The notes: generated from the sequence alone by a model not told the origin. DNA of 64,000 nucleotides from a virus (IMGVR_UViG_3300025087_000034); one strand, 5' to 3'. Counted from the first letter of the stretch, positions 39,010 through 62,138 are shown. Translations and numbers: made by a program.

Positions 39010-39702
39010 TCACTCATATTTGTCTATCCATTTAAGAAGGCGTATTGTTCCATAGTTATATCTATTATACCTTCCCTCCCGTTTCTGACTTTCGATAATG
39101 TTTCTACACACAGATATGTTCGCGCCGTGTTCTAATAGCGCTTCTATTACTTCAGTATGGCCGCAGGCTAAGGCATATTTGAGGGCCCGATCATAGTCTG
39201 CATGTACGTTCGCCCCATGCCTAAGTAGTACTTTTACAATAGCAAGATGCCCTGTTCTACAAGCTTTCCTAAGAGCTAAATCATTATACATATGAACATC
39301 AGCTCCTTCGGTAATAACTCTACTCAATACTTTGGGTGTAATCTTCTCTTTTTCACCCATAATTACTTTGTTGGCGTGCCATACTTGTGGCTTATTTTCA
39401 AGGTGTCCGAAAAACCCTGCAAAAGTATCTTTTACCACGTGGGTATTACTAGGTATGGTAACTTTTCGTAGCCACGGTCCACAATCTAAAAAGGCTAGAG
39501 TGTCTTCCTTGGTAAAATAGATATCGAATGATGGCTTAGCTACATTGAGCCCAGTCTTGAGTTTTAGTCCGTCATAAATTCTATTCAGCATTATAATTTT
39601 GTAGAAACCCATTTGGGTATCGTTTTTTATTTCGTGTGGGTCGTAGCTACAATGAGCCTGGGCATGGTAGTACTTAGACATTGTTCTTTCTTCTGATGTC
39701 AA
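39010..39702 (-). CDS. Ankyrin-repeat protein (family member 1)
   Basis: FYKI..GLKLKTGLNV N-module; GADVH..D.ALR.A..GH..IVK.LL repeats. Confidence 0.85.
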   Translation of the reverse strand: MTSEERTMSKYYHAQAHCSYDPHEIKNDTQMGFYKIIMLNRIYDGLKLKTGLNVAKPSFDIYFTKEDTLAFLDCGPWLRKVTIPSNTHVVKDTFAGFFGHLENKPQVWHANKVIMGEKEKITPKVLSRVITEGADVHMYNDLALRKACRTGHLAIVKVLLRHGANVHADYDRALKYALACGHTEVIEALLEHGANISVCRNIIESQKREGRYNRYNYGTIRLLKWIDKYE

Positions 39703-42700
39703 CTTCTCATTTTTTCTTTGGCGTGTTTAAACATCCAACCAGTCAGGTCTTTTGGTTCAGTATTTATGTTCTTTATCATTACAATTGGGTGCAGATTAGA
39801 CCTAGTGGTAAACCAAAACTTGTGAAATTTTCTAACTATTATATTAACAATGGAGGACCTACCTTCTAACTCTGCCTTTTTATAATATTCCTCCAAACTT
39901 TCGGGACGAAATCCACAAAGGGCGGCCTTTTTTCTTATTATGTCAGTTAATTTTATGCTGGTAGATTTATCAAATCCTAATTCCACCATCTTATCAACTC
40001 GGGCTGTACATATCGCTTCTTTACATTCTTTTTCCAGGCTTCTTCCAGCATGCTTTCTACTAAATACACTATTAGCAACTTTGTCTAGTAGAATTTCCAT
40101 TGCTATTGTAGTATCAGGGTCATTATAGTCCAATTCACCCTCTAAGATCCTCATTATATTATAGCACAAGGCAATTATTGTTCCGGTACCTCGTTTTATT
40201 CCCGTCAAACCCTCTACTATTTCTGCATTTTCTTTGGCATTTAGTAGCCCAAATCTTTGTATGTTGTATTCATCCAATACTAGCTCCCTAAATCCAGGTA
40301 TTTTCTTTAATCTGGCTTTTTCATACGCAGCCAGCCTCGCCGGGTGTGGATTATTGAACTCTGTTTCTAGGGCTACTCTGGATTCCTTACTGTGAAAGCT
40401 CATTATATATATAACATCCCCATCGAAATCTAGGGTGAGTGAAGAAAGACTACTCCCACTTACTTTGACTACATACTTAGCAAGGGGCTCATCGGTTATT
40501 TTTACTTTCTGGGCTCGTACGGACATGAATCCTAGACAAGGAAACCTTTCTACTAAAACTATGTCTCCTTCTAATATTCTTAAGTCATTAGCCATTTCTC
40601 TGTGAAGCTCTATTTGGTTAGGTTCCAGTATATCACTAACACCGGCTGTGGCTTTAATTGTGTAAGGATACCGAATTGAAAGACAGTAATTACTTATCTT
40701 GCCATTTTTAGAACTTAAGGTGCCTGCTATAGTGTGAAAATATAAAAACACAGCCCTACCTACTTGTGACACACTGACTTCTTCGTTTTTATACTTATGA
40801 ATAGCACTTACTATGGCATTTGCTAAGGCGGATATGTCTGACAAACCAAACTGCCCGCTTTGATGTTTCCAAGGCTTTCTAAATTTACTGGAAGGAATTA
40901 GTATTTTGTCTAATATATAGGTGTCATTTTCATTATCCATGTGTTTGTTGGTAAACTCTTCAGAAAATTCTGAAAACATGGCCTTCTTTAATATATATTT
41001 ATAATCGTCGGGTAACTTTAGATAGAAGCCATTTGGGCATAAGGTTTCATCAGAAACTGTCCCACTAAAATCAATAAGGTGGTGAAAGAATCCCCCTGTC
41101 TGATTAACTGGGTTTATCTTATCCCACTCTATTGTTGGTATATCCTTTTCCTCTCTGTTGATAGATTCTAATACACGGATATATTCAAATACCTGGTCCT
41201 CGCCTTGGGAGTGTTTTAATATTTCTTTTATGATAGGATTTTTCTTTCCAAACGTGGTTAGTAGGGCTCTGAATTCTATGTGACTGAGTTTATTACCCGC
41301 TTGTCGTACACCCCTACCGTCTACTACATCAGTATCGTATTTTGTCCATAGCTGGTCCTCAGGTGTCTTGGTGTAACCCCAGAATATCCACCCAGCGACC
41401 CCCCTAAAGTCTCCCCATTGGGTGGCAGCCGTTACCGTTCCATCTTCTGAATACCCTATATTAGAGAGTTTATCTTTTATTGATTCCATACTGGTAACGA
41501 ACTCATCTTCTACTATTGTCTCTTTATCGGAGCCATGTATCAAACTACTGAGAGCTTCTAATAGCTGCCCAAAATTCTTTCTTTTTTGTACAGAACTAGC
41601 TGAAACTATAACGTCTATGGGTACATCCCCACGAACGGGGTCATGAATTACCCCCGTATCTTGTAAGGTAATAACACCTTTATTTCCATGCCTATTGGTA
41701 ATCTTTACACCCTCCTTGAAGGTTCTCTTATAAATTATGGTTATTCGTCGTATTTTAGTTGGTGCATTATTGAAATTTATTACCGATTCGATAACGGAGG
41801 ATACTATAGCACTTTCGGCTCTTAAATTGAAACGAATGAAACTACCGTCAGGTTCTATTGCTAAGGGATACAAAAAGTTTAGCGAGTCTCCTTCTCGTAC
41901 CAAAGTCGTACCAAAAGTTGTATAGCTTTTGGTTTCCATGGTAAAGAGATGTTCAAGCCTATTACTAACTATTATTTGGTCTTCAAAATTTAGGGGCATA
42001 TCTACAAATAGGGTCATTAAGTTCCACCCTGTTCTATTGATCCCTACGTCACTTAAAGTTTTTTCTGTCCTACTCATTATTTTGGGTGGTTCATCCCCTC
42101 GCATCCCTAAAGTTTGGTATAAATTTCTACGGGGGTTATGATATCCTATACCAAACGGTATAGTCTTTCTTACGTCCACAGTAAGAATATTATTATTGCA
42201 CATACCACTATCTGACAAACCCAAGGAAGTACACGGAAACAATATTTCATTAGCTGTCTTTTGATATTCCAAGGCTTTATTTGGAGGAAGGTCTTTAAAT
42301 GTAGAATCCACTATTTGCATTCTATGGCACATGGCCCAATTTTGCATGTCAGTGCCTACTATGGGAAGTGCATTTACATAGGAATCAATGACCTTTTGAA
42401 AGCCTTTAAACACTATAGGAGCAGAACCATAGATAAAGCTTCGTACTAGGCGATCAAGCTGAGTTCTTTTACTGGAAGTTTTAGCAAACTTTTGTGGGTT
42501 GTCGGTGAACATCCCATATATAAGATTCCAGAAATCTATTTCTTTGCCATCCACAAACCAGGTCCCCACGGCTCGTTTTACGTGTCCCTCCTCAATAAAA
42601 CACAGGCCTTTTTCATCAGAACTGGGAATCGGGATATTGATCGATTGTTCTATTTCTTTGGATTTGAATGTGAGCCAAAGACTACCAGATTTTTCCTCAA

Positions 42701-42818
42701 TCCTTATTAACTCAGTTTGAAAGATATCCCCCAACTGTCCCTGGGCTTTACTACGAGAGGTCTCTGAAGAAGATTTTATCTTAGATATAAAACCATCTTT
42801 TCCAAGAACCTGTGTCAT
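39699..42818 (-). CDS. Single-chain two-barrel DNA-directed RNA polymerase (reduced beta-beta' fusion)
   Basis: beta motifs NFEDQIIVS, GVKITNRHGNKG, RKNFGQLLE followed in the same frame by beta' motifs ERFPCL and LDFDGD. Confidence 0.9.
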   Translation of the reverse strand: MTQVLGKDGFISKIKSSSETSRSKAQGQLGDIFQTELIRIEEKSGSLWLTFKSKEIEQSINIPIPSSDEKGLCFIEEGHVKRAVGTWFVDGKEIDFWNLIYGMFTDNPQKFAKTSSKRTQLDRLVRSFIYGSAPIVFKGFQKVIDSYVNALPIVGTDMQNWAMCHRMQIVDSTFKDLPPNKALEYQKTANEILFPCTSLGLSDSGMCNNNILTVDVRKTIPFGIGYHNPRRNLYQTLGMRGDEPPKIMSRTEKTLSDVGINRTGWNLMTLFVDMPLNFEDQIIVSNRLEHLFTMETKSYTTFGTTLVREGDSLNFLYPLAIEPDGSFIRFNLRAESAIVSSVIESVINFNNAPTKIRRITIIYKRTFKEGVKITNRHGNKGVITLQDTGVIHDPVRGDVPIDVIVSASSVQKRKNFGQLLEALSSLIHGSDKETIVEDEFVTSMESIKDKLSNIGYSEDGTVTAATQWGDFRGVAGWIFWGYTKTPEDQLWTKYDTDVVDGRGVRQAGNKLSHIEFRALLTTFGKKNPIIKEILKHSQGEDQVFEYIRVLESINREEKDIPTIEWDKINPVNQTGGFFHHLIDFSGTVSDETLCPNGFYLKLPDDYKYILKKAMFSEFSEEFTNKHMDNENDTYILDKILIPSSKFRKPWKHQSGQFGLSDISALANAIVSAIHKYKNEEVSVSQVGRAVFLYFHTIAGTLSSKNGKISNYCLSIRYPYTIKATAGVSDILEPNQIELHREMANDLRILEGDIVLVERFPCLGFMSVRAQKVKITDEPLAKYVVKVSGSSLSSLTLDFDGDVIYIMSFHSKESRVALETEFNNPHPARLAAYEKARLKKIPGFRELVLDEYNIQRFGLLNAKENAEIVEGLTGIKRGTGTIIALCYNIMRILEGELDYNDPDTTIAMEILLDKVANSVFSRKHAGRSLEKECKEAICTARVDKMVELGFDKSTSIKLTDIIRKKAALCGFRPESLEEYYKKAELEGRSSIVNIIVRKFHKFWFTTRSNLHPIVMIKNINTEPKDLTGWMFKHAKEKMRS

Positions 42819-42895
42819 GCTACAGACATACCTTTCTTTTTGGGTTTCTGCACATTCCCGACCACAAATTCCGCAAAAAACTAAATAGGTGCCAA

Positions 42896-43870
42896 CTAAT
42901 CAACCCAACAATCATACGCATACCATTCGTTCATTACAGATTCAAGATTGTGTTTTAGGACATATCTTGGGTTATTTATTAAATCCAGGCGTACCCAAGA
43001 AAAGAAATATTGCAACATATTTACTGCTAAACCAGAATCTTTATTTCTATCCCTATATTCTATAAGTTTATCCATCGATAACATATAACCTAAATTATAT
43101 AGTTTACATATATAATACAGCGGTATCAATTCATATCTGGCTATGTCTGTTGGATTTTTTTTATACTTTTTTCTTATACTATCAAATGATAGTAAAGGAA
43201 TGCCTTCTGAATCCTTGGCTTCTTTATCCAAATAGTTTTCCAATAGCAAGAACAACTTACCCCCTCTTACATCTCTGCCCTTTTGATGTGTCAAAAAGGC
43301 AAGGCCAGACCTACTCACAGTACCATTCTCAAAGAGGCGGATAAAACTAGATGAGTTGGCCTCATTAAATATACCGCATAGATCTATGTCTAAGAGTTCA
43401 AACTTATGTGGTCTTAATCTTGTTATTTCATTCATATACTTTACGAAGGGTCTTTTGGCCCAGGGACTTGTTTTATTTCCTGGGGGTTTTATACAGGTTT
43501 TTTTCCCATAACAGGCACTAAAAGAATTAAAACTGTGGGGCCATATTTTCATAAATGGGAGGTGTTCTTCTCTAGTTCTTATAAGCTTTCGTAATAGTTC
43601 CTCTCCATTATGTACAACTGATAGTTTCTCCGTAGTTTGTATGGTAGTTATACTACCCGCAGTTGTAATACCCTGGTTTACTAACAATCTTTCAAATAGA
43701 GCGTCAGGACCAGCAAAGGTGAGACATTTTATTTTGTCTCTTCTATCACCATAATAGAAAGGGAAAGTAGTTTCTAGGAAATTTTTTACTGAAAAGATTT
43801 TATGAATTCTTACGAGTGTTTTATTCTTCCCATTCCAACACATTACTTTATTAGAGTTTATTGACATCAA
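42896..43870 (-). CDS. Hypothetical protein, possible SAM-dependent methyltransferase-like fold
   Basis: CLTFAGP and FELLDIDLCG resemble class I MTase motifs; weak. Confidence 0.35.
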   Translation of the reverse strand: MMSINSNKVMCWNGKNKTLVRIHKIFSVKNFLETTFPFYYGDRRDKIKCLTFAGPDALFERLLVNQGITTAGSITTIQTTEKLSVVHNGEELLRKLIRTREEHLPFMKIWPHSFNSFSACYGKKTCIKPPGNKTSPWAKRPFVKYMNEITRLRPHKFELLDIDLCGIFNEANSSSFIRLFENGTVSRSGLAFLTHQKGRDVRGGKLFLLLENYLDKEAKDSEGIPLLSFDSIRKKYKKNPTDIARYELIPLYYICKLYNLGYMLSMDKLIEYRDRNKDSGLAVNMLQYFFSWVRLDLINNPRYVLKHNLESVMNEWYAYDCWVD

Positions 43871-43945
43871 TCTCTCCCAAAATAAGTTTCATGTGCTTCG
43901 ATGAGCACCCAGATAGTTTGGGGCTATCGAAGCGTGAAGGCTGGA

Positions 43946-44116
43946 TTACTTACCCTTACGGGTTTTGTTCGCCTTCTTGGCTGCTAGAGACCTCTTTCGT
44001 GCAGCAGCACGTCGAGTATCCCATGCCTTTTTCGCAGCAGCAGAGCGCTTGGCCGACGTCTCATTAGCCTTACGAGTTTCCCATGCCTTCTTGGCCGCTT
44101 TACTTGTATTATTCAT
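43946..44116 (-). CDS. 56-aa Lys/Ala/Arg-rich histone-H1-like basic protein (not in the ORF track)
   Basis: SD AAGGAGGTG; MNNTSKAAKKAWETRKANETSAKRSAAAKKAWDTRRAAARKRSLAAKKANKTRKGK. Confidence 0.75.
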   Translation of the reverse strand: MNNTSKAAKKAWETRKANETSAKRSAAAKKAWDTRRAAARKRSLAAKKANKTRKGK

Positions 44117-44174
44117 TAAATCACCTCCTTTCCATTTTTTTAGATTTTCCCATTTCTGATATAGTTATACAGTT

Positions 44175-44714
44175 TTAATCGTCGAAAATTGTTTTTAAGT
44201 ACTCTGCAAGAGTACAGTTTGGAGTAACACTTTCAAGTAAAGGTAAATGTTTTTTTGCACGCTGTATAAGTTCTTCTGGTCCATGAGCTAGTATGGAATT
44301 TATATTCCAAATTAACATATTAGAAATTTGTTTTCCTTTAACGCCAATATACATAGAAAGTGCTGCCCCAGCTTTGGAGTAATCCCTAGTAGCATTTCCG
44401 TAAGAGCAGTTGGTGCAAACCGGCCAAAGATCCCCCAAATGAGTATTTGTATTATCTTTGCACCTAGGACAACATAGGACTCCTTTCATCATAGTAAATA
44501 AAAACAATAGGGACATTAACTCAATAGTCAAGGGGGTATCTTTTAATGCCTTTATTTTATACTTCCTTCCCTCTTTATTTATATCTACGTCCCATCTTGG
44601 CAACAAGCTTGCAGCTTCCCCCTCTAGTATTAGTTTACCACAAGAGCAGGCTGCAATGGTACAGTCTGAAAATTCAGAATATCGAATACGTTCTCTGCAT
44701 TTTTCACAAATCAC
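44175..44714 (-). CDS. Hypothetical multi-zinc-ribbon protein
   Basis: CEKC..CSCG, CPRC..CTNC. Confidence 0.55.
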   Translation of the reverse strand: MICEKCRERIRYSEFSDCTIAACSCGKLILEGEAASLLPRWDVDINKEGRKYKIKALKDTPLTIELMSLLFLFTMMKGVLCCPRCKDNTNTHLGDLWPVCTNCSYGNATRDYSKAGAALSMYIGVKGKQISNMLIWNINSILAHGPEELIQRAKKHLPLLESVTPNCTLAEYLKTIFDD

Positions 44715-44863
44715 TGTCGGATTCCTCTATTCAGTGTTTCCCATCACTCCACCCCTTAGTTCACCATAATTGGCACAAGGACTAGATTGATATCGATAGT
44801 TATTCATCTTTTTTAGATTCCTTTGTTTTTTTGTGTCTATAGTTTTGCTAAGATTTTAAGGAG

Positions 44864-45667
44864 CTATCTATTATATATTTTGATTACCGATATTTCAGTG
44901 TAACCCTGCCAATTTTTTACCAATAAAAAGTGATAGTAGTCATCTTTTGTCTCCAGTGAACCTCCACCCCCTCCGCTACAATAATTCTTGATCTTCTTAT
45001 ACGTATATTCCCTATATGCATGATAGTGCCCGTGAAAAATCGCCCGTATAGAATCTCTATATTTGTAAACAGTGTTCCAGAGGCGCTTGTTTGAGGGAAA
45101 GAAGTACAAGCCGGACATATCGTAAAGTCGATGCCATCGCTTGCCTCCTTCCCCATAATATATCTTGAAGTTTTCCGGATATGGTAAAGGTTTGTGGGTA
45201 AAAATAAAAGTAGACTTGTTTCCAGTGTCAGACAAAGCTAGGTTTAGTTGACTTAACATTATGTCTGAGGTAAAAATACCAGCACTATCTAAGATAATAA
45301 ATTTTAGATTTCTATATGTGAAGGTTTCAAAGGTGGTTCCATAGCCACCTTTCCAGAAATCTCTCCACTGGTCTCTTGTGGGTTCATGGTCGTATCTACA
45401 AGGTAATAGCTCATGATTTCCTATAACATAATAAAAAGGTATATTAATTTTGTCTATAGATTTTTTTTGGCCTCGCCACAAAGATTTAGATCCACAATAT
45501 GCCATATCACCAAGGTGTATTACAAATTTTACATTATGTTTTTTTATTTCTGCTAAAGCATTTATAAATACTTTAGGTCTAGCTTGGGTATCTCCTATAA
45601 TAGCAAATTCCCAAGGTTCAGAATCTCCAGATAGGAGTAAAGAAGAAAGAAAGAAAAATTCTAACAT
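44864..45667 (-). CDS. Calcineurin-like metallophosphoesterase with N-terminal signal/anchor
   Basis: GDTQ, HLGDM, GNHE, HGHYH. Confidence 0.9.
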   Translation of the reverse strand: MLEFFFLSSLLLSGDSEPWEFAIIGDTQARPKVFINALAEIKKHNVKFVIHLGDMAYCGSKSLWRGQKKSIDKINIPFYYVIGNHELLPCRYDHEPTRDQWRDFWKGGYGTTFETFTYRNLKFIILDSAGIFTSDIMLSQLNLALSDTGNKSTFIFTHKPLPYPENFKIYYGEGGKRWHRLYDMSGLYFFPSNKRLWNTVYKYRDSIRAIFHGHYHAYREYTYKKIKNYCSGGGGGSLETKDDYYHFLLVKNWQGYTEISVIKIYNR

Positions 45668-45691
45668 GTTCTCCTCTTCTAATCTAAAATA

Positions 45692-45778
45692 TGGCGAGGG
45701 TAGGACTCGAACCTACGTTGTTTTCCCTAAGGGTAACAGATTTACAGTCTGTCGCCTTCGCCGCTAGGCTACCTCGCC
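45692..45778 (-). tRNA. tRNA-Tyr(GTA); CCA not encoded
   Basis: GGCGAGG/CCTCGCC acceptor, ACAGA-CTGTAAA-TCTGT anticodon arm, long variable arm, GTAGG-TTCGAGT-CCTAC. Confidence 0.95.
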
Positions 45779-45779
45779 T

Positions 45780-46670
45780 TTAAGTGAAAACCTTGTTTAA
45801 GATAGAGCGCACTATACGACCTACCATTGGAACAGTATTCAAATGGTACCCAACCCAGTTTAACGGGTTTATCATTTCTACAGGTTTCTTTTTTTCTATG
45901 GCTGCTATAATTTTTCTTGCCACTGTTTCTGGTTCGTTTGAATATAAGGGTAATAATCTCATACTCATTTTTCCCATCCATGTCGAGGATTTTTCCTCCA
46001 CTCCTTCATAGAAACCTGTATTTACCATGAAAGGGTAAACTGTTGTAATGTCTATCCCGTCTTTTTTGGCCTCTATACCTAGAGATTCCGAAAAGACTGC
46101 GAGAGCAGCCTTGGTTGTAGCATATGAAGTCCACGTAGGCAGTCTGAAGAAAGACTGCCCACTACATATGTTTACAATGTGTAACCTTCTATCGTCATTG
46201 TATTTTTGTCTGTGTGCTTTTAATGCTGCCATGGAAGTGACAGAAATTTTCACGGCGGAAAAGAAGTTTATATCAAAAATACGGTTCCATGTATCTACGT
46301 CCGTATCTTGTATAGGTTCATTTAATCCTATCCCTGCATTATTTATAACTATATCTGGTAATCCTATCTCTTCACTTCTAAAATAACATATTTGTTGAAA
46401 TTCTCTAATTAGAGCATTATTATCTGTTATGTCTAATACAAAAGCGAATACAATTACTCCATAATTCTTTTCTAGTTTTTTCTTTAATAAATCCAGCCCT
46501 ATAGAATCTTTATCCCATAAGATTAGCTTGGTTTTCTTCTTAGCAAATAATTCAGCCAAACATTTTCCAATACCATTTGCAGCACCAGTTATTAAGACTG
46601 TTTTGTTTTTTACTTCTAGATTTCTACCCATTTTTCTATCACAATCTCTTTCTTTCTCACTTCTGGACAC
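45780..46670 (-). CDS. Short-chain dehydrogenase/reductase (SDR)
   Basis: TGAANGIG, NNAG, YATTK. Confidence 0.92.
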   Translation of the reverse strand: MSRSEKERDCDRKMGRNLEVKNKTVLITGAANGIGKCLAELFAKKKTKLILWDKDSIGLDLLKKKLEKNYGVIVFAFVLDITDNNALIREFQQICYFRSEEIGLPDIVINNAGIGLNEPIQDTDVDTWNRIFDINFFSAVKISVTSMAALKAHRQKYNDDRRLHIVNICSGQSFFRLPTWTSYATTKAALAVFSESLGIEAKKDGIDITTVYPFMVNTGFYEGVEEKSSTWMGKMSMRLLPLYSNEPETVARKIIAAIEKKKPVEMINPLNWVGYHLNTVPMVGRIVRSILNKVFT

Positions 46671-46882
46671 TCTATTTCTCTTGAGTCATATTCATACGGT
46701 TCTTCATCCTGCATTTCAGTAGCACCTTTCCTATAATAAGAACGGTAGAACTTATCCTCATATTGGAATACGACCAAGAAGACTATTGCCCATCGGTCAT
46801 GGTCCGTTATTTCTTCATACACTTTTTGTAGTTTTCTACCCCCATACACCATGTCTTGCAAGTCTTCTCTGTTAAATTTCAT
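46616..46882 (-). CDS. Hypothetical protein
   Basis: 88-aa ORF typical of phage early regions. Confidence 0.5.
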   Translation of the reverse strand: MKFNREDLQDMVYGGRKLQKVYEEITDHDRWAIVFLVVFQYEDKFYRSYYRKGATEMQDEEPYEYDSREIECPEVRKKEIVIEKWVEI

Positions 46883-47572
46883 TTAACTCTCCGCTATGAG
46901 CTTTCCTTTTTCTTGTCCGTGTATTTCATAGACTTTGTCATACCACCACTGGGTTTTTGTCTTGAATCTATGGATATTATGACCCGTTCCACCTTTGCCC
47001 ACCATCCCCTCCAATTGAGTACCCTTCATTTGGGCCCAGGGAGTTTCTTGACGAACACTTTCTATGTATTCATTATCCCACAATAGATTGCCTAAATATT
47101 CTATGTTTATCACTTCATGACCGTCAAAAAGTTTTACAAACTCTTTTGGGGATAACATCCCTCTTTTGTGTATATCTATATCTATTAATGTAAGATACTT
47201 TTTATCATCTTGTTGGTGCACACCAGCAAAGCTGTTGTTTCCATAGAATTCACAGAAGGCTACTATGTTCTCCCATCTATTGTCTATCGCAAGTTTTGTC
47301 AATGGTTCTATTAGAGTGTCATGAAATATTTTTATTGCGCCGCCAAAAATTAAGTCAGTACTATCAAAGAGTCTATGTCGAGTACCTAATTTGTAAAACC
47401 CTTGTTTTTTAGACCATTCAAATCTTAAATTTGAACCGTCTAGCTTGACAAATGTATAGAGAGTTAGTCTTGGTCCGCTATAGGTGTTATAGTTTGGTAT
47501 ATTTGGGTAGGATTTCAAATCTTTGAATACCTTTCGTAGTGTCTTTGAACATCCATTTCGAATGGTAGACAA
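46883..47572 (-). CDS. RNA ligase-like nucleotidyltransferase (Rnl family)
   Basis: Motif I KLDGSN, FCEFYG, motif IV EGMV, motif V FKTK. Confidence 0.75.
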   Translation of the reverse strand: MSTIRNGCSKTLRKVFKDLKSYPNIPNYNTYSGPRLTLYTFVKLDGSNLRFEWSKKQGFYKLGTRHRLFDSTDLIFGGAIKIFHDTLIEPLTKLAIDNRWENIVAFCEFYGNNSFAGVHQQDDKKYLTLIDIDIHKRGMLSPKEFVKLFDGHEVINIEYLGNLLWDNEYIESVRQETPWAQMKGTQLEGMVGKGGTGHNIHRFKTKTQWWYDKVYEIHGQEKGKLIAES

Positions 47573-47703: not shown

Positions 47704-47728
47704 AAGTTTTTTCTTATTAAATTTCTTT

Positions 47729-48313: not shown

Positions 48314-48316
48314 TTC

Positions 48317-48559
48317 TTAAGACTCCTTTCTCGGTGAAAGTTTTCCCACAACAGTCACATTTATAGGGAAACTTTCCCATTCATACAAATGAATAAATGT
48401 CTCATAATGTTCAGCAAGTACTCTCAATTCCAATTTGGCATCTTCACCAAAACAACTTACACCGCAGCCTCCAAACCAGGGTTCGTGTCCAAACATTTCC
48501 ACAAAACCTCTTTGTACTGTTGTCGCTTGTTTAAGTTTTTCTACGTTATATCCTGGCAT
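48317..48559 (-). CDS. Hypothetical protein
   Basis: 80-aa ORF. Confidence 0.45.
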   Translation of the reverse strand: MPGYNVEKLKQATTVQRGFVEMFGHEPWFGGCGVSCFGEDAKLELRVLAEHYETFIHLYEWESFPINVTVVGKLSPRKES

Positions 48560-49278
48560 CTAGTTTTTTTCTTTTTATCGGACAAGAGTTTTACCACCTC
48601 AGAGTGTTCGTTCATAATAGCCCACCTAAGAGCCTCGTCTTCGTGAGCGTGTACGTCAGCTCCGTGCTCAAGAAGAAGTTTTACTATTTCAATGTGTCCG
48701 TACTCACTAGCCAATCTGAGAGCCTCGTCTTCGTGAGCGCGTACGTCAGCTCCGTGCTCAAGAAGAAGTTTTACTACTTCAAGGTGCTCGTTTTCACTTG
48801 CCCACCTAAGAGCTACGTCTTCTTGAACGTGTACGTCGGCTCCGTGCTCAAGAAGAAGTTTTACTACTTCAAGGTGCCCGTTTATACTAGCCCATCTAAG
48901 AGCAAGGTCTGTCTCAGCGTGTATGTTGGCCCCTTCTTGGATTAGTCTTTCTACCACCTCAACGGTAATCTTTTCTCTTTTCCCAAGAATAACCCTGGAA
49001 GCCCGCCACTTCTCAGGCTCTTTTTCAGGGTCTAGCACCATTTCTGCGTCGGTAGGAATGGTAACCTTTCTAAGCCAGGGTCCATAGCCTAAAAAGGCTA
49101 GAATGTCTTTCCTAGCGAAGTAAATTCCCCCTGGACAACAAGAACCTTCCTTCTCGAAAGGAATTGGGTCTACATTTAGACTAGTTTTGAATTGTAACCC
49201 GTTGTGGTTTTCTTTTTCGTTGAGAATTTTGTAGAAATTCAGGGGCCTTCCTCCAGAGTTCGAGTGGAAAAACGTCAA
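48541..49278 (-). CDS. Ankyrin-repeat protein (member 2), 30-aa repeats
   Basis: Same N-module; HGADVH.xED.ALRWASxxxHLEVVKLLLE units with 90-bp period (48651, 48741, 48831). Confidence 0.9.
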   Translation of the reverse strand: MTFFHSNSGGRPLNFYKILNEKENHNGLQFKTSLNVDPIPFEKEGSCCPGGIYFARKDILAFLGYGPWLRKVTIPTDAEMVLDPEKEPEKWRASRVILGKREKITVEVVERLIQEGANIHAETDLALRWASINGHLEVVKLLLEHGADVHVQEDVALRWASENEHLEVVKLLLEHGADVRAHEDEALRLASEYGHIEIVKLLLEHGADVHAHEDEALRWAIMNEHSEVVKLLSDKKKKTRCQDIT

Positions 49279-53332: not shown

Positions 53333-53340
53333 ATTGCCTC

Positions 53341-53859: not shown

Positions 53860-54104
53860 ATGACATTAGAATCTACTAGCTTATTTAATGAATTTTTATC
53901 TACTGGTTTTGATTTAGGAAGTCTTCCTTTTCCGCCCGAAATTTTTTTCAGGAAAACAATCATAGCAGTTGTATCATCTAGTTCCTCCGCCCTAACTAAG
54001 TATTTCCTATCACCATCAGTATAAATACAGATTATCTTATCTACCTGCTCTGGCATTTTGCTTCCTTTCTGGTTAAAACAACTAGGTAGTACTAGTATAG
54101 CCAA
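53829..54104 (-). CDS. Hypothetical protein
   Basis: ORF coupled to its neighbours; likely start MPEQVDK. Confidence 0.45.
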   Translation of the reverse strand: MAILVLPSCFNQKGSKMPEQVDKIICIYTDGDRKYLVRAEELDDTTAMIVFLKKISGGKGRLPKSKPVDKNSLNKLVDSNVIWGMLSSKNT

Positions 54105-54693
54105 AGTTGCTAATAGTTATTGTGTTCATACTGGTAAGTTCATCTAGACCAGGTATTATAGTGACACCTTGACTAATCGTGTTATCTATGCTAATAGTGA
54201 GAGGGGACTCCCAGGGAGTTGGGGGGATAAAAGCTGTGGTGTCTAGTTTATTTTTTTCATTATTAATACGACCAACACAATATTTATCCGAAAGATCTAT
54301 ATATCGTATGCCTGTTTCCAGACATAGGGACTTAAATCCTTTTCCTAGTTTACTATTACTATATAGTATCACCAAACCTAGATTAGACTCAAACAGACAT
54401 TTGAGTGATTGTGTTATTTTTTCTGTCAGTTTATTACTTTTTATTTTAAACATTTCCCCGATTTTTTTACTAAACAGAGTTGCCTCAGATTCCTGTCTTG
54501 GTACTACTTGGGCTGGCACTGAAAGCAAAGAAAGGAAATATTTGTCCAGAGAATTCAAACTAAAAGGAAAATTCATACGTATTGTATCTGGCATCATATG
54601 GCCACTGTTTATTAAAAGAGCCAAATTTTCGGTTACTTTTATCTCCTCCTCTGTAGGATCTATTTTTCCTATAAAAAGCAGGTTATATGGCAC
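54082..54693 (-). CDS. Hypothetical protein
   Basis: 203-aa ORF. Confidence 0.5.
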   Translation of the reverse strand: MPYNLLFIGKIDPTEEEIKVTENLALLINSGHMMPDTIRMNFPFSLNSLDKYFLSLLSVPAQVVPRQESEATLFSKKIGEMFKIKSNKLTEKITQSLKCLFESNLGLVILYSNSKLGKGFKSLCLETGIRYIDLSDKYCVGRINNEKNKLDTTAFIPPTPWESPLTISIDNTISQGVTIIPGLDELTSMNTITISNFGYTSTT

Positions 54694-54711
54694 TATTAAT
54701 TCCCTAGGGTG

Positions 54712-55665
54712 TTAAAGACCCCACTCTTTGTATAGATTATATGTCTTTCTACAACACTTATTAAATAACTTCATAGTTCCCTCACTCACTTCTTTAGAAA
54801 TATACTTCTTCCATAGGTTAGAGGCTGTCTTAAAATCTCCATTGTTTATAATGTCTACTACGGTTTGTTCTGGAATATTGTTGACCAAACCTTGTAAGCG
54901 TTTTTCTCTAACAATATCTACGGCATCCTCCGCCATAGAATAGACCAATTCCACTAATTTTGGGGATTGGGCCCAGTAATTACTTAGAGTACGATATTCT
55001 ACTCCATAACTAGTTGGGCGATGACAGCCGGCCTTTCCGTATAGTTTGCGTCTGTTTATAGAATCTTCTGAGTGGTCCATAATTGTAAATGGGATTCCTG
55101 CTACTATATCTAATGCTTTTATCACAGCTACCTTTCCATATGGATCCAATAAAAAGTCATTGCCTGAATCTTCTACATACCCTATGTGAAGATGCCCCCC
55201 ACAACTTCTAAAAGTCCTTTCTGTGGCACCAATAGGAACCTCGTTTCTCGTAAGTTTCCATGCATCATAGTCGGGCTCACACCCAAACTCACGGCACCTG
55301 GGGTCTAACAATTCAGATTCTGGAAACTCCGTCGAACCTATAGGGAGAACCAACAATCCTTCTGGAAGAGATTTGAACGCCTCTGCCATCGTATCTCTGA
55401 TTGCTTTCACAAAGTCTTGCACATTGTCCACGGGTGGCGTGGCGAATTCTAAGGCTACGTTATCATGAGTAACATTGCCTCCATTGGATAATATAGTTGG
55501 GTTATGCTTACTTCCCGATATAAACTTTATAGCCGATAAAAGATTGTTTTCCGCATCTCTAAGAAATAGCTCTGTGTCTGTTCCTACGGTTATATGAGAC
55601 ATATTCAATCCTTTTTCAAAAGTTGGAGTAGGTTCTTTTGCCAAATATCTCCAAACCTGGAGCAT
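54712..55665 (-). CDS. Third phiEco32-like COOH-NH2 ligase type 2
   Basis: TVGTDTELFL, DNVALEF, FGCEPDY, CGGHLHIG, YGVEYRTLSN. Confidence 0.88.
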   Translation of the reverse strand: MLQVWRYLAKEPTPTFEKGLNMSHITVGTDTELFLRDAENNLLSAIKFISGSKHNPTILSNGGNVTHDNVALEFATPPVDNVQDFVKAIRDTMAEAFKSLPEGLLVLPIGSTEFPESELLDPRCREFGCEPDYDAWKLTRNEVPIGATERTFRSCGGHLHIGYVEDSGNDFLLDPYGKVAVIKALDIVAGIPFTIMDHSEDSINRRKLYGKAGCHRPTSYGVEYRTLSNYWAQSPKLVELVYSMAEDAVDIVREKRLQGLVNNIPEQTVVDIINNGDFKTASNLWKKYISKEVSEGTMKLFNKCCRKTYNLYKEWGL

Positions 55666-56423
55666 TTAAAATCTTTGGGTTTAGACGCAGCATTTGTTAT
55701 AAAGGACACAATACCATTGTTATAGTGTATATAGTCTGTATCTTTTTCCTTTTTTTCTATTTCTGTATATGGGAGTTTAAAAATCTTGTTACTATTCTTT
55801 AATACGAACATTATTATATGGTCATCTAGATTAAACTTTATAGCTTTCTCCACTACATTTTTTAAATAGCCTTGATCGTTAGTCCATTTCCCTATTTTTT
55901 CTTTATCTATGCAAACATCAAGATAGTCCCTTATTTTTTCCCCTCCATATTGTTTCACTCCAGACAAGCGCCACAGCATAGTATAAATAGAAATCAAAAC
56001 AGTAGAACTAATCCATTTTTTAGTGGAAATTACCAAAAATACAGGTATATTTTCACTTTTGACACCAAGGTTTATTAGCTCAGATTTTTTCCAACTTAGT
56101 TCTGTTTCTATTTTGTTTAATAAATTAAGTTGTGCTTGTAGCCCTTCTTTATTTTCATATTTAATTAGTAAGTATGTTTTATCAGAGGGAATTTTTCCAT
56201 CCGTCGTTTGATTCCATGAGAAGTTATATATATTTACTCCGTCTTCTCGGTTGGAGGCTACCAGAGCATCTCCTAGAAAATCTCTACACAAGACAAACCC
56301 GTGCAGTTGTTTTATTTTAGTCTTTCCATCCCCTGTTTTATTGATTAAGCAAAAAGCAAACTGCATATTTACTTGCTGGTATATTTCTGCAAAAGAACCT
56401 GATTTAAATTCTATCTCGTACAT
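55605..56423 (-). CDS. Hypothetical protein adjacent to the ligase
   Basis: 272-aa ORF containing LCRDFLGD. Confidence 0.55.
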   Translation of the reverse strand: MYEIEFKSGSFAEIYQQVNMQFAFCLINKTGDGKTKIKQLHGFVLCRDFLGDALVASNREDGVNIYNFSWNQTTDGKIPSDKTYLLIKYENKEGLQAQLNLLNKIETELSWKKSELINLGVKSENIPVFLVISTKKWISSTVLISIYTMLWRLSGVKQYGGEKIRDYLDVCIDKEKIGKWTNDQGYLKNVVEKAIKFNLDDHIIMFVLKNSNKIFKLPYTEIEKKEKDTDYIHYNNGIVSFITNAASKPKDFKCSRFGDIWQKNLLQLLKKD

Positions 56424-56890
56424 CTGGTCTCCTTGGGATAGGAAAGACGATTCAAAAGTTCAAATATGAAATACTGATCAGGGGTCTTTAATGGGATGCC
56501 ATTCATAACACTTTCCCATAATTCCCTCTTTACTATATAGGGTATCCTGGAAGTAGGTCTACTTTTTTGAAATAAATCTACAACAACTGGTCTATTTATT
56601 CCTTTTTCTAGTAAAGAAAACTCTACGCATAAATGTTGCTCTGTCCACGTCTCTGGTATTTTTTTTATTCTTTGAAGATAGCTAAGCCCTGATTTCGTTA
56701 CAAAACATTCAAATACTATATTTATCTCCTTTTTATTCTTTGTTTCTATTCCATATTTATGTGGCGACAATTTTATTTTTTTCAAGTGTTTTAACAAGCT
56801 TGTATATTTTGGTATGGAGGTACTTTTTTCAGAGTCTAGGAGCAAATAGAATTTAGCAAGGACAAACGGCTCCAGAGTCTGTGTTAACAT
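56411..56890 (-). CDS. Hypothetical protein
   Basis: 159-aa ORF. Confidence 0.5.
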   Translation of the reverse strand: MLTQTLEPFVLAKFYLLLDSEKSTSIPKYTSLLKHLKKIKLSPHKYGIETKNKKEINIVFECFVTKSGLSYLQRIKKIPETWTEQHLCVEFSLLEKGINRPVVVDLFQKSRPTSRIPYIVKRELWESVMNGIPLKTPDQYFIFELLNRLSYPKETRCTR

Positions 56891-57831
56891 CGATAGTTCC
56901 CTATTGTTCTTATACTCAGATTACCATCATACCTTAAACATACCCCATTCGAAACCATAGTCGTAGTGGCCTCTCCGGCGTAGCGCCTACAACTTATTAT
57001 TATATTGTTGTTTTCTATGAAAGCTTCATAAAAATCAGAATGTTGAGAATGCACAAGGTATCCTAATCTAGTAAAGGTCTCAAAATCTACCACTATTACA
57101 TTTTTAGGATGTCCTACACAATAACTATCTATAACTGAAAATTCAGAGAACCTGGCAAAATTATCAGTGACGTCGCCCAGATAATCCCTATAAATTTGTG
57201 TAAAACCACTAGTAAAATGGCACAAAGTTGTAATTCTATATAGAGTACCCCTATTTATTAGTATATGGGTATAGTTTCCCGAAGAGTTGGATAATGTTTG
57301 TACGGATACCACCGTTTCTTCAGGAGCTAGTATGGATTCCATCTTTTGTTGTCGCAAGAGAGCTATATAGACAGTTTTGTCACCATGCTTACCTAAACAT
57401 ACACTGACAAAAGAAATCAAAGCGGAGCCATCCTCTAGAAATTCTGTTAAAAAACAGAGGGGCTTATCTTTTATAGTATTTACAGCTAGTATCTTAGCCT
57501 CCGGGTGTGCCGGATGAATACCAAGGTGGGAGGTACAATTCAACTGCTTACTATTGGAAAAGCCAGCGTCAAATACATAGGTATTGTTTTGATTATTAAG
57601 TAGAAACAAAGTGTGGCCCCTCGGTTCACTTAGTATAAAGGCTAGGCCACAAAGACCACCATATCCTATTCGACCCGCGTAGTTGGTTTCTCTAGACAGA
57701 GATTTATATACAGTGCCTATGTCAGGCATATAGAATAAGGCTATATAGTCGTCAGGTTTCTGTATAGTATTATGTATGCTAGAATAAGGAAAGGGGCATA
57801 TTCCATTAGGTCTTATACGGCCAGCTGGCAT
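56884..57831 (-). CDS. Hypothetical protein
   Basis: 315-aa beta-rich ORF. Confidence 0.55.
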   Translation of the reverse strand: MPAGRIRPNGICPFPYSSIHNTIQKPDDYIALFYMPDIGTVYKSLSRETNYAGRIGYGGLCGLAFILSEPRGHTLFLLNNQNNTYVFDAGFSNSKQLNCTSHLGIHPAHPEAKILAVNTIKDKPLCFLTEFLEDGSALISFVSVCLGKHGDKTVYIALLRQQKMESILAPEETVVSVQTLSNSSGNYTHILINRGTLYRITTLCHFTSGFTQIYRDYLGDVTDNFARFSEFSVIDSYCVGHPKNVIVVDFETFTRLGYLVHSQHSDFYEAFIENNNIIISCRRYAGEATTTMVSNGVCLRYDGNLSIRTIGNYRC

Positions 57832-58481
57832 TTTAGTGTTCCTTGATTAAACAGGTAATTTTTTATACATTGTCGATAATATATAACGCCACGAGAGGTT
57901 TCCCTCATCCATTCTGGGTGGTATTGAACTGCCAGCCCATTTATAGAGGGATAATAAACAACTTCTAATTCCTTTTCCGGGTTTCCTACGTCTTTTCTAG
58001 ATTCAAGCTCATAGATAGAAGATCTGTTTACGTCTGTCCAGGCTAACTCTATAGCACCCTTTACTAGAGGGTGTCCAAACATTTGATGGTGACAACTTGT
58101 CACTTCGAGAGAAGCCCCCTCCGATGTTACTATTTTGTGATAACCTCCTTCGTGACCAGTGGTATGTTGATATAAAAATCCTCCAGCCATAGCGGTGAGA
58201 TATTGTCCACCTCTACAAATACCCGCTATGGGTATATTGTATTTCCTAGCAAAATGATAAACGAACCCGTCTATGTCATCTCTATATTTAGAGTCGTATG
58301 TGTGGGGGTTTTTCTTTTGACCATATAAAGAGGGACTTATGTCTGCCCCCCCAGTCAACACCACTAGTCCAATATTTTTGGCATTTGATTCTATCCCCCC
58401 GACGTATGTAGTCATTTCCCCAAATACTCTATGAGGCAGGTAGTCTGAATGGGAACCTATAACCAATACTTTTTTTGACAT
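57813..58481 (-). CDS. Class I glutamine amidotransferase-like / peptidase C26 (gamma-glutamyl hydrolase)
   Basis: LTGGADI, GICRGGQ (Cys), SCHHQ, QYHPE (His-Glu). Confidence 0.9.
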   Translation of the reverse strand: MSKKVLVIGSHSDYLPHRVFGEMTTYVGGIESNAKNIGLVVLTGGADISPSLYGQKKNPHTYDSKYRDDIDGFVYHFARKYNIPIAGICRGGQYLTAMAGGFLYQHTTGHEGGYHKIVTSEGASLEVTSCHHQMFGHPLVKGAIELAWTDVNRSSIYELESRKDVGNPEKELEVVYYPSINGLAVQYHPEWMRETSRGVIYYRQCIKNYLFNQGTLKCQLAV

Positions 58482-58538
58482 CTGTTTTTCCTTTTCTACT
58501 ATATCTTTAGGTCACTTATGGTCTGCTTCCTTTTTCAA

Positions 58539-58799
58539 CTAAATCTTAAAGTCATATATAGGAGGATAGACTAGGGGGATCGAGGGGACCTCTGTTCCTG
58601 TGTCTACTAATAATATTGCTTTGTGATTTGGTACGAGGCCTGTTTTATGAAAGTACTCTAATTCTTGCGGATTAACTAGAATCCAAGCATTTCTAGAAGT
58701 TTTTTCAGCAAATCCACAGGAACACGCACTAAATAGTTTCCAACAGGACGGACAGACAGCAACCATAGCTCTGCTGCCGTCATATTTTTTTCTAGCCAT
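58539..58799 (-). CDS. Small Cys-rich protein
   Basis: CPSC..CSCG. Confidence 0.45.
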   Translation of the reverse strand: MARKKYDGSRAMVAVCPSCWKLFSACSCGFAEKTSRNAWILVNPQELEYFHKTGLVPNHKAILLVDTGTEVPSIPLVYPPIYDFKI

Positions 58800-59100
58800 C
58801 TATATCGATCCACTTTTCTGGTGGTTCCTTGTAATCAAAAAATCCTTCACTAGGAGGGTCGTTCTCTACATCCTCTATGGGCTTGCTCGTTTCTTCACTA
58901 CAGGGGTCCATAAGAGAAGTTTCCTGGCTATCATTTTCATTTTTCTTTGCTAATAATATAGCTTGGTCTTCGTTATAGTGTCCGTGTATTCCCAAACTTG
59001 TTTTTATAGGACGGCTTCCACAATAGACCAATTCATACCACGTATTCTCTAAATCGTCAAAATAAATCGCTGGATTACCCATTTTTGGCTTGTCTTTCAC
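58792..59100 (-). CDS. Hypothetical acidic protein
   Basis: 102-aa ORF. Confidence 0.45.
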   Translation of the reverse strand: MKDKPKMGNPAIYFDDLENTWYELVYCGSRPIKTSLGIHGHYNEDQAILLAKKNENDSQETSLMDPCSEETSKPIEDVENDPPSEGFFDYKEPPEKWIDIDG

Positions 59101-59410
59101 GCTTGTGTGCCACTCCGTTTTCTACTGTTCCTACACATGTTCCTGTGCTATTTTCTATAATGAATAGTAGCTTTTCGCCTGCACGAGCTCGTTTCTTGAT
59201 TGGATTATCTTTTCCATACATATTTGGAACTACATATAGATATTCTCCAATACGGAGTCCTTTAGCACATTCTCCGTGTTTGTTAAATAGCATTTTTGAG
59301 CTTAGTTGTTCTCCTTTATAGAACAAAACGATATCCTCGAACATGTGGGTATACACAGCTAGAGGAAGATATTTTGGATTATCTATAGTTATGATTCTTT
59401 TGGTTCTCAT
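59075..59410 (-). CDS. Hypothetical protein
   Basis: 111-aa ORF. Confidence 0.5.
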   Translation of the reverse strand: MRTKRIITIDNPKYLPLAVYTHMFEDIVLFYKGEQLSSKMLFNKHGECAKGLRIGEYLYVVPNMYGKDNPIKKRARAGEKLLFIIENSTGTCVGTVENGVAHKRERQAKNG

Positions 59411-59433
59411 TTCACAACCCTTCTCGTTAGCTT

Positions 59434-59931
59434 CTATCCCTTTGTTTTTTTCAACAGTTTTGCTATTTCAAGGTATCCCCACATACTAGCCCACCTAAGA
59501 GCCTCATCTTCACAAGCGTGTACGTCAGCTCCGCGCTCAAGAAGAAGTTTTACTATTTCAAGGTACCCGTTTATACTAGCCCATCTAAGAGCAAAGTCTG
59601 TACCAACATGTACGTTAGCCCCCTCCTGAATCAATCTTTCTATTACCTCGACGGTAATCTTTTCTTTTTTTCCAAGAATAACCTTGGAAGCTCTCCACTT
59701 CTCAGGTTCTTTTCCCGGGTCTAGCACCATTTCTGCGTCGGTAGGAATGGTAACCTTTCTAAGCCAGGGTCCATAGCCTAAAAAGGCTAGAATGTCTTCC
59801 CTAGCAAAGTAAATTCCTCCTCGTACACAAGAACCTTCCTTCTGGAAAGGAACAGGGTCTACGTTTAGACCGGTTTTGAATTGTAACCCGTGGTGACATT
59901 CGTTTGAGTTGAGAATCTTATAAAAGTCCAT
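59434..59931 (-). CDS. Ankyrin-repeat protein (member 3)
   Basis: Near-identical N-module to the 48541 gene (82-bp identical block 59717-59798 = 49028-49109). Confidence 0.9.
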   Translation of the reverse strand: MDFYKILNSNECHHGLQFKTGLNVDPVPFQKEGSCVRGGIYFAREDILAFLGYGPWLRKVTIPTDAEMVLDPGKEPEKWRASKVILGKKEKITVEVIERLIQEGANVHVGTDFALRWASINGYLEIVKLLLERGADVHACEDEALRWASMWGYLEIAKLLKKTKG

Positions 59932-59940
59932 TTGTTTTCC

Positions 59941-60225
59941 CTAGTTAAAGAAGTCAACTATACGTTTTTTCGTTCTTGGTGTCCACAGGCAAAAGGTTTT
60001 TTCTTTTCCTTCTCTCTGTTCAGGCTTGTCTAGAAATAAGCCATTTCTATCTATTTCCGGGTAACCTATTAGAGTAAGGGTATTTCCACAAAAGAAACAA
60101 AACATAGTTAGAACGTCGCTATCACCTAATTCGTTCTCTTTCGTCTGGTCATTTATGAGATGTAGATTATGATTACATTTTTGACATATGGGTAAGGATA
60201 ATACCACTTCTTCGCCTATTTCCAT
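59941..60225 (-). CDS. Small zinc-ribbon protein
   Basis: CQKC...CFFCG. Confidence 0.45.
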   Translation of the reverse strand: MEIGEEVVLSLPICQKCNHNLHLINDQTKENELGDSDVLTMFCFFCGNTLTLIGYPEIDRNGLFLDKPEQREGKEKTFCLWTPRTKKRIVDFFN

Positions 60226-60232
60226 AGTTTTC

Positions 60233-61660
60233 CTATCCCTTGATTGTAAGTAAAGGCCGGAGTTTTACTCTTGGGCTGGCAATATCAGCATCTTGCATTG
60301 TTTGGATAATTGGTCCGCTGGGTTTGTAAGCTTCGGGTGCTTCTTCTGCTAATGTTCTATGGTATTTTTTCAGGATATCTGGGCGGCATCTTATTTCAAT
60401 AGTGTTTGGATCTATAGCTGTTACTATTTTTAATTTGCTTAACTCTTCTTGTTTTAAAGTTTTCCCTCTAGCTATTTGTCTACCAGTACCATGGCAGGCA
60501 CTATTTAATGCTGTTTCATTTCCACTACCTACTAACACATAACTTGCGTCTCCCATAGAGCCAGGAATTAAGACGGGCTTTCCCTTCTTCGCTAGACAGG
60601 CTCCCTTACGATGTAAATAATGGTTACCTTCTTGGGAGATCCAGTTATGAGGAGAGTCCCACAACAAGCAATGTTGAACTTTTTGTCCTAGTGTTTCTAC
60701 CAAAGCACGAATTACCATTAGACCTAGAAACATGCGATTGCAAGCTGCAAAATTGATCGCGTTCCACATCGCTGTAAGGTATTCTTCTGCGTTTATCCCC
60801 TCTAATTTATAGAATCCGCTCTTAGGTTTTGCAGCTCCTTTAGGCCAATGTTCTCTTGCACGGTTTACAAAATATCTCCCTACAAGGGAGCCTAGACTAA
60901 CAGAGCCTGTGTGTACCATGATGGTAACAATACCAGGATGAATTGGCATATTTATAAGCTTGTTATCTAACAAGTAAGTTGAACCTAACAGTTGATTTAC
61001 CTCTTGGATTTCAACAAAGTGATTACCTCCTCCTACGGAACCTATTTGGGCATCTCGGCTATCTTGCCTCCCTGAACCTTCTACATAGTTTAAAAATGGA
61101 GAAAACAAAGTTACTGGTTGTGAAGTTACAAGAGTAGCATTAATAGCTTGTATTTTGGGTTCATAATATTGCCATAGCCCAATATGTGCGTTGATATTAT
61201 AATTTTCTAATAGACCAAGGGGACCTTGGCATAACATCGATATTCGTTGCTCTGGTGACATCGGGATATCTCTTCCTCCTTGAAAGAAAAGATATCGTAG
61301 CTTGGTCTGAAAAGTGGGCCAATGAGGTTCCAAATCTTTAGATTGTAAATCAGTAATTAGAAGACTAACCCCACAACCTATATCGGTTCCTATTGCCTGG
61401 GGTAACACTAGTCCCTTCATTAGTGCAACAGTACCAATAGGTATTCCTCTACCTTTATGAAAATCTGGGGTTATTACAACTTTTTCGAGAGTTCCTTCAT
61501 AATCTTGGTGAACTCTAAGAAATCCTAGTAACTCCTCTACTGCGTTAGTTTCTATTTGTACCTCTTGGTTAGCAAATATATGGGCATCCACTCCTTGTGG
61601 ATTATCAATTCTCAAAGTATACTCGTTTAAGCGATTCAAAGCAGGATGCAATTTAAACAT
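60233..61660 (-). CDS. rtcB: RtcB-family RNA ligase
   Basis: PDFHKG, DIGCG, GGGNHFVE, HTGS, HRKGA, CHGTGR, EEAPEAYK. Confidence 0.95.
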   Translation of the reverse strand: MFKLHPALNRLNEYTLRIDNPQGVDAHIFANQEVQIETNAVEELLGFLRVHQDYEGTLEKVVITPDFHKGRGIPIGTVALMKGLVLPQAIGTDIGCGVSLLITDLQSKDLEPHWPTFQTKLRYLFFQGGRDIPMSPEQRISMLCQGPLGLLENYNINAHIGLWQYYEPKIQAINATLVTSQPVTLFSPFLNYVEGSGRQDSRDAQIGSVGGGNHFVEIQEVNQLLGSTYLLDNKLINMPIHPGIVTIMVHTGSVSLGSLVGRYFVNRAREHWPKGAAKPKSGFYKLEGINAEEYLTAMWNAINFAACNRMFLGLMVIRALVETLGQKVQHCLLWDSPHNWISQEGNHYLHRKGACLAKKGKPVLIPGSMGDASYVLVGSGNETALNSACHGTGRQIARGKTLKQEELSKLKIVTAIDPNTIEIRCRPDILKKYHRTLAEEAPEAYKPSGPIIQTMQDADIASPRVKLRPLLTIKG

Positions 61661-61676
61661 TCTAATAGCTTTTTAA

Positions 61677-62138
61677 CTAGGCTCTCTTCCAGCAAGCTTT
61701 TACTAAAGAAACAAGGGCAAACAGTGGAAGGAGGATTTCCGGCTCCTTACTAGGTTTCGTTTCTATTTCAGATTCCTTTTGTTCCAACAATGAAGGATTT
61801 TCTTCTTTGGCTATCCGATTTTTCTCAAGGACCTTGTGTTCACGAAGGAGTTTTACTATTTCAACGTACCCCCTCACACTAGCCGACTTAAGAGCCTCAT
61901 CTTCACAAGCGTGTACGTCAGCTCCGTGCTCAAGAAGAAGTTTTACCACCTCAGTGTGTCCATTCATACTAGCCCACTTGAGAGCCTCGTCTTCGTGCGC
62001 GTGTACGTCAGCCCCGTGTTCTAGTAAGAGTTTTACTACTTCAAGGTATCCATAATTACTAGCCCGCATAAGAGTCGTGTTAAGTTGTTCTTCTTTTGTT
62101 GGGAGCAAGGTTTTTTCTTTCACGGTTTTTGACTGCAA
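61677..62138 (-). CDS. Ankyrin-repeat protein (member 4), no N-module, hydrophobic C-terminal tail
   Basis: 30-aa ankyrin units; ends EILLPLFALVSLVKACWKRA. Confidence 0.85.
   Translation of the reverse strand: MQSKTVKEKTLLPTKEEQLNTTLMRASNYGYLEVVKLLLEHGADVHAHEDEALKWASMNGHTEVVKLLLEHGADVHACEDEALKSASVRGYVEIVKLLREHKVLEKNRIAKEENPSLLEQKESEIETKPSKEPEILLPLFALVSLVKACWKRA
61693..61819 (+). repeat. Copy 1 of an identical direct repeat of at least 127 bp
   Basis: Matches 63874-64000 base for base as read. Confidence 0.9.

What the first reader, a model, noticed from the sequence alone, without database searches (positions are those of the whole stretch)
39010..62138. Dispersed family of giant-virus-like 30-aa ankyrin proteins
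Seen: four genes (39010, 48541, 59434, 61677) plus a probable fifth at the window edge. Repeats have a 90-bp/30-aa period rather than 33 aa. Three share an N-module FYKI..H.GL..KTGLN....F...GSC..GG.YF....I..FL.YG..LR.V..P, and two share an 82-bp identical block. Recalled, not searched: this module and the short GADVH..D.ALR.A repeat resemble Mimiviridae ankyrin proteins; sponge-phage ankyrins have been reported to dampen eukaryotic immunity. Inference: gene exchange in a protist- or animal-associated niche and ongoing expansion by recombination.
Basis: partly seen in the sequence, partly recalled or inferred. Interest (0 to 1): 0.68.

Follow-up and report, generated by a model that had tools for sequence, protein, structure and literature searches.

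The report
Phage ankyrin family with ART-like head
A large uncultured groundwater phage carries about 15 related genes that join a constant small domain shaped like an ADP-ribosyltransferase to ankyrin repeats whose binding surface varies from copy to copy, a design shared with many other phages and with amoeba giant viruses and probably used to act on different host proteins inside the infected bacterium.

Summary
Observation confirmed: four minus-strand ankyrin genes with 30-residue repeats, an 82-bp identical block, and a real fifth gene at the window edge. Linked assemblies show about 15 paralogs in this phage, about 11 with the N-module.

The Mimiviridae likeness is real (45-52% identity, same architecture). 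Closer relatives (64-70%) lie in phage or phage-like contigs, the family has thousands of members, and this phage's copies do not nest inside Mimiviridae. A direct giant-virus donor is therefore not shown. There is no signal peptide and the source is groundwater, so a sponge-type immune-dampening role is unsupported.

Best reading: intracellular variable-binder plus ART-fold-head conflict proteins. The scan reported this ART-like head earlier on other DNA (e1-790765); I found no paper describing it.

The parts
39010..39702 (-). Gene A: degenerate head (about 39612-39330; lacks His13, Cys35 and the Gly-Gly loop) + 3 ankyrin repeats; likely ATG start at 39681 (223 aa); directly downstream of the RNA polymerase subunit gene
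48541..49278 (-). Gene B: intact ART-like head (from 49242) + four 30-aa ankyrin repeats (48933-48574); probable CTG start at 49242, 7 nt behind a GGAGG (inferred from the sequence)
59434..59931 (-). Gene C: intact ART-like head (residues 1-95, about 59931-59650) + two 30-aa ankyrin repeats; the head was modelled and fold-searched
61677..62138 (-). Gene D: head-less; 2-3 ankyrin repeats + charged linker + moderately hydrophobic C-terminal 17-mer (mean hydropathy 1.8); in sister assembly L008 this site holds a head-bearing mosaic gene
63858..64000 (-). 3' end of gene E, a head-less 199-aa ankyrin protein with the same C-terminal tail as D (complete in L007:50-649)
49028..49109 (.). 82-bp exact block in the head of B, identical to 59717-59798
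59717..59798 (.). 82-bp exact block in the head of C, identical to 49028-49109
61693..61819 (.). 127-bp exact block in the tail of D, identical to 63874-64000 (tail of E)
60233..61660 (-). RtcB RNA ligase gene lying between ankyrin genes D and C (context)
62248..63845 (-). Cargo between E and D (TilS-like gene and a 208-aa zincin-like gene); replaced by other genes in sister assembly L008

Best explanation
A lineage-expanded family (about 15 copies) of intracellular conflict proteins of a roughly 250-280 kb phage. Each full copy has two parts. The constant 95-residue head has a minimal ART fold with a conserved cleft (Lys5, His13, Cys35, Gly38-Gly39, Tyr41, Lys78). The array of 30-residue ankyrin repeats has a fixed framework and a diversified binding face (repeat positions 7, 10, 14, 17, 18). 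Recombination among the dispersed copies keeps the heads alike and reshuffles repeats, and apparently flanking cargo, giving new binding specificities. Shown: architecture, repeat period, variable face, purifying selection on the head, recombination signal, predicted ART-type fold. Inferred: the ankyrins pick different host proteins (most likely defence or gene-expression components), and the head brings an NAD/ADP-ribose-using cleft to them, either transferring ADP-ribose as AcrIF11 or T4 Mod/Alt do (about 0.3) or binding without catalysis.
Confidence: 0.5

Rival explanations
1. The head is a catalytically dead, ART-derived docking or folding cap with no nucleotide role. The proteins are plain variable binders or adaptors (F-box-like logic) that inhibit or recruit targets stoichiometrically.
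For: No catalytic Glu/Asp is conserved. Head-less paralogs D, E, E2 and g183 are kept. The same head caps other solenoids: DUF4116 and hexapeptide repeats.
Against: Invariant Lys, His, Cys and Tyr across 309 sequences suit a ligand cleft better than a cap. Stand-alone heads exist (Mimivirus L26, 104 aa).
Confidence: 0.25
2. The head acts on nucleic acid ends (Tpt1/KptA-like 2'-phosphotransferase or RNA ADP-ribosylation) as part of a phage RNA-repair kit.
For: Tpt1 structures rank 3, 4 and 7. In this phage ankyrin genes flank RtcB and lie near RNA ligases.
Against: No separate Tpt1 RNA-binding domain. Homologues in L010, L011, L014 and L022 have no RNA-repair neighbours. A fixed RNA substrate does not explain a diversified protein-binding face.
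Confidence: 0.08
3. The copies are mainly recombination anchors or by-products of a genomic accordion; their number reflects repeat-driven duplication, not many selected specificities.
For: Sister assemblies L006 and L008 are essentially identical to the others up to an ankyrin gene, then switch to different repeats and cargo. Assemblies end inside these genes.
Against: Purifying selection on heads and repeat framework, with variation focused on the binding face. The switches could partly be mis-assembly.
Confidence: 0.1
4. One reading: giant-virus-derived ankyrins used against a eukaryote (protist grazing or animal immunity), like sponge-phage ANKp.
For: Same architecture and up to 52% head identity with Mimiviridae proteins. 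A sister relation with Mimiviridae is not rejected (p-AU 0.077). ANKp precedent (10.1101/608950).
Against: No signal peptide, whereas two Ankyphage ANKs have one. Groundwater source. Closer relatives in many unrelated phages, from 38-kb to jumbo. Not nested in Mimiviridae.
Confidence: 0.07

Closest known systems
Mimiviridae 'putative ankyrin repeat proteins' with the same N-terminal domain (Megavirus baoshan A0A8K1T2A9, Tupanvirus A0A6N1NMS3, Mimivirus R267 Q5UPU4 and L26 Q5UP99)
   Same: Same head (Foldseek E 3e-10 to 4e-8, TM 0.86-0.88, 35-52% identity), same 30-aa repeats, same variable repeat positions, multi-copy expansion
   Different: Here in a bacteriophage; forms its own clade with closer relatives in phages; the head has no assigned function in those annotations
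Pfam DUF7666 (PF24703)
   Same: Weak hits from family members (best E 2.8e-5, below the curated cut-off); Atlas neighbours carry DUF7666
   Different: The window's heads do not hit DUF7666 themselves; this subfamily is fused to ankyrin or DUF4116 repeats
Small divergent ARTs: rifampin ART Arr (2HW2, 9IAF), Tpt1/KptA, Rhs toxin TreX, anti-CRISPR AcrIF11 (6KYF)
   Different: No significant sequence or profile similarity; inferred triad K-Y-K instead of H-Y-E/D or R-S-E; smaller (95 aa); specificity apparently supplied by a separate repeat array
Sponge Ankyphage ANKp (bioRxiv 10.1101/608950)
   Same: Phage-encoded ankyrin repeats
   Different: No signal peptide, has an ART-like head, about 15 copies, groundwater rather than host-associated
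DARPins / consensus ankyrin repeats
   Same: Near-consensus framework with variation on the binding face (best PDB sequence hits, E 1e-30)
   Different: Natural; 30 rather than 33 residues, 3 missing from the hairpin

Membership tests
Ankyrin repeat proteins | Tandem helix-turn-helix repeats matching Pfam Ank models | tested here: met
   Ank/Ank_2 over the cut-off for all four genes; helix pairs at pLDDT 80-95 in a single-sequence model
Ankyrin repeat proteins | Canonical 33-residue period | tested here: not met
   Period 30 here, and in 134 of 142 spacings among homologues: a short variant
ART superfamily | ART split beta-sheet fold | tested here: met
ART superfamily | Catalytic triad H-Y-E/D or R-S-E | tested here: not met
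   Conserved Lys5, Tyr41, Lys78 and no conserved acid; register inferred from strand order, Tyr41 falls on the PARP and Arr Tyr only in non-significant alignments
ART superfamily | NAD+ binding, ADP-ribose transfer or NAD+ cleavage | not testable with these tools
   Needs biochemistry
Arr / Tpt1-KptA / PARP families | Significant sequence-profile similarity | tested here: not met
   hhalign E 0.1-0.17; Arr score 12.9 vs shuffled mean 12.5; templates were shallow
DUF7666 (PF24703) | Score above the gathering cut-off (27 bits) | tested here: not met
   Best homologue 25 bits, E 2.8e-5; the window's protein has no hit: related, not a member by cut-off
Mimiviridae head-plus-ankyrin family | Homologous head followed by 30-aa repeats | tested here: met
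Mimiviridae head-plus-ankyrin family | Descent from within the giant-virus clade | tested here: inconclusive
   Not nested in Mimiviridae in either broad tree; sister grouping not rejected, p-AU 0.077; 95 columns, no root
Ankyphage ANKp | N-terminal signal peptide | tested here: not met
   No hydrophobic N-terminal stretch, maximum 12-mer hydropathy 0.22 or less
Ankyphage ANKp | Dampens eukaryotic phagocytosis or immunity | not testable with these tools
   Needs a cell assay

The most novel reading that the evidence does not exclude
The head is an active ADP-ribosyltransferase (or NAD-cleaving enzyme) with a new K-Y-K active site. The family is a natural, recombination-diversified library of 'programmable' ARTs in which ankyrin faces choose the substrate, used by phages against bacterial defences and by Mimiviridae against amoebal proteins. 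That would assign a function to a domain heading thousands of phage and giant-virus proteins.
Probability: 0.3. Interest if true: 0.82.

Novelty: new variant of a known kind. Interest (0 to 1): 0.6.

Why it matters
The head has no assigned function, yet it matches 3,310 protein clusters at 50% identity and heads many Mimiviridae ankyrin proteins. Ankyrin proteins are the most expanded gene class of amoebal giant viruses (PMC8715426). An ART-type fold gives a direct, cheap test (NAD+ assay, three point mutants). This phage supplies about 15 near-identical heads with different binding faces, an unusually clean natural series for asking whether repeats set substrate choice. It also documents a module shared across the phage / giant-virus divide.

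Full report
Setting. The window reads as part of a large phage genome. It has long co-directional gene runs, a divergent RNA polymerase subunit (Rpb2_6 and Rpb1_2 hits; PHROG RNAP beta), a sigma-70-type factor, RuvB, ClpP, a Clp ATPase, ThyX, a COOH.NH2 ligase, RtcB, an RNA ligase, TilS and one tRNA. The clusters of its ankyrin proteins include contigs of up to 248-259 kb. A record labelled groundwater metagenome is 100% identical to 58960-60155. I saw no virion genes in the window; earlier unchecked notes place capsid and tail genes elsewhere on the same contig.

Observation. Four ankyrin genes are at the stated coordinates on the minus strand with an exact 30-residue period. The 82-bp block is 49028-49109 = 59717-59798, and a 127-bp block links the tail of the 61677 gene to the window edge. 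The edge gene is a complete 199-aa ankyrin protein in L007, which is identical to the window over 14.6 kb. Three genes carry the N-module, but the 39010 copy lacks the Cys/Gly-Gly loop and His13. Against DARPins the repeats lack three hairpin residues, and the repeat part folds as helix pairs without an alignment.

Family size. One scaffold carries both L023 (99.995% identical to the window) and L004, which ties L001-L006 to this phage. L020 comes from the same sample and has the head-to-head pair noted earlier at the far end of the window's contig, so its link is inferred. Together these give about 15 paralogs, about 11 with the head. Other phage or phage-like contigs have their own expansions: ten heads in L010, five in L022, three in L011. 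These group largely by genome in the trees.

The repeats. 59 repeats (55 distinct) from this phage keep a fixed framework and vary most at positions 7 and 17 (over 3 bits), then 10, with 8, 14, 18, 21 and 30 at 1.5-1.8 bits. Positions 7, 17 and 18 correspond to DARPin randomised positions (mapping and my knowledge). Positions 7, 10, 17 and 18 (and 14 in Mimiviridae and L014) also top the list in Mimiviridae and other homologues. pN relative to overall pS is 1.75-1.8 at positions 7 and 17, while framework pN is 0.13 and the head has pN/pS 0.22. The excess is suggestive only, being uncorrected and recombination-affected.

Recombination. Site incompatibility among nine heads rises with distance (0.27 vs 0.53, p<0.0005), and identical 90-bp repeats occur in different genes. 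L006 has no mismatch to L005 over 13.9 kb, then switches inside an ankyrin gene to other repeats and other downstream genes. L008 matches the window over 12 kb but has a head-bearing mosaic gene and other cargo at the D site. Mis-assembly cannot be excluded without reads. The three SNPs in unique sequence next to the L008 junction (intergenic and in the RtcB 5' end) favour a real recombinant there.

Giant-virus link. The best named viral matches are Megavirus, Tupanvirus and Mimivirus ankyrin proteins. Contigs of 1,021,348 and 1,259,197 bp (the sizes of moumouvirus and Megavirus chiliensis, from memory; rounded sizes in PMC8715426) carry the same design. However, the nearest Atlas cluster is mostly Uroviricota (TM 0.93), identity to other phage heads is 64-70% against 40-45% for the fetched Mimiviridae copies, and homologues sit in small and large phages, one with a terminase. 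In trees, this phage's intact heads form one clade (100 SH-aLRT) outside Mimiviridae. Giant-virus heads fall in two separate groups. The Mimiviridae-side group includes giant-virus-like contigs (L050, L052) and one phage-like contig (L040). A sister relation is not rejected (p-AU 0.077). Exchange between phages and giant viruses happened in the family's history, but direction and date are unresolved and a direct donor is not shown.

Eukaryote-directed role. No signal peptide is present, unlike two Ankyphage proteins, and the source is groundwater. D and E have only a short hydrophobic C-terminal tail.

Verdict. The feature is real and larger than reported. It most likely is a family of intracellular variable binders carrying a constant ART-fold head (0.5); catalysis about 0.3. 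It is a new variant of a known kind: viral ART-fold conflict proteins and constant-domain-plus-variable-repeat families. No paper found describes it. Interest 0.6.

Noticed in passing
window 39699-42818 (-): 1039-aa RNA polymerase subunit with both beta-type (Rpb2_6) and beta-prime-type (Rpb1_2) hits in one chain; no match in cultured phages or IMG/VR
   Followed up: partly
window 20049-35432 and 54712-58481 (-): phiEco32-like sets of COOH.NH2 ligases (several), glutamine amidotransferases and ATP-grasp-like genes, present in two clusters
   Followed up: no
window 18387-20017 and 22549-23622 (-): Three pentapeptide-repeat-like proteins (by eye)
   Followed up: no
window 3379-4641 and 8037-9422 (+): Zinc-finger-array proteins with C-terminal Vsr-like nuclease domains (by eye)
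   Followed up: no
window 12241-13056 and 16976-17704 (+): Two HNH-type nuclease genes with internal tandem 14-residue helical repeats (by eye)
   Followed up: no
window 43950-44099: Short imperfect direct repeats (36 and 26 nt) between genes, possibly a small repeat ORF or a structured RNA
   Followed up: no
window 45692-45778 (-): Single tRNA-Tyr(GTA) gene
   Followed up: no
window 46883-47572, 60233-61660, 62248-63195; L001:5871-12590: RNA repair and modification genes (RNA ligases, two RtcB, TilS) are interspersed with the ankyrin genes
   Followed up: partly
window near 18300: Coding strand and GC skew switch from + to -
   Followed up: no
L019:4134-5276: Complete 38.8-kb virus record encodes a Macro-like + hexapeptide-repeat + ART-like-head fusion protein
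   Followed up: partly
L040:2826-4358: Phage-like contig encodes a full WGR-PARP_reg-PARP protein 3.6 kb from a head-plus-ankyrin gene
   Followed up: partly
L010:6956-18473: Ten head-bearing genes within 11.5 kb of a 115-kb phage-like contig
   Followed up: partly
L022 and L041/L048: NCBI records labelled Sphaerochaetaceae and Patescibacteria look like phage contigs binned into MAGs
   Followed up: partly
L018:4995-5294: A giant-virus copy of the head is interrupted by an in-frame stop
   Followed up: no
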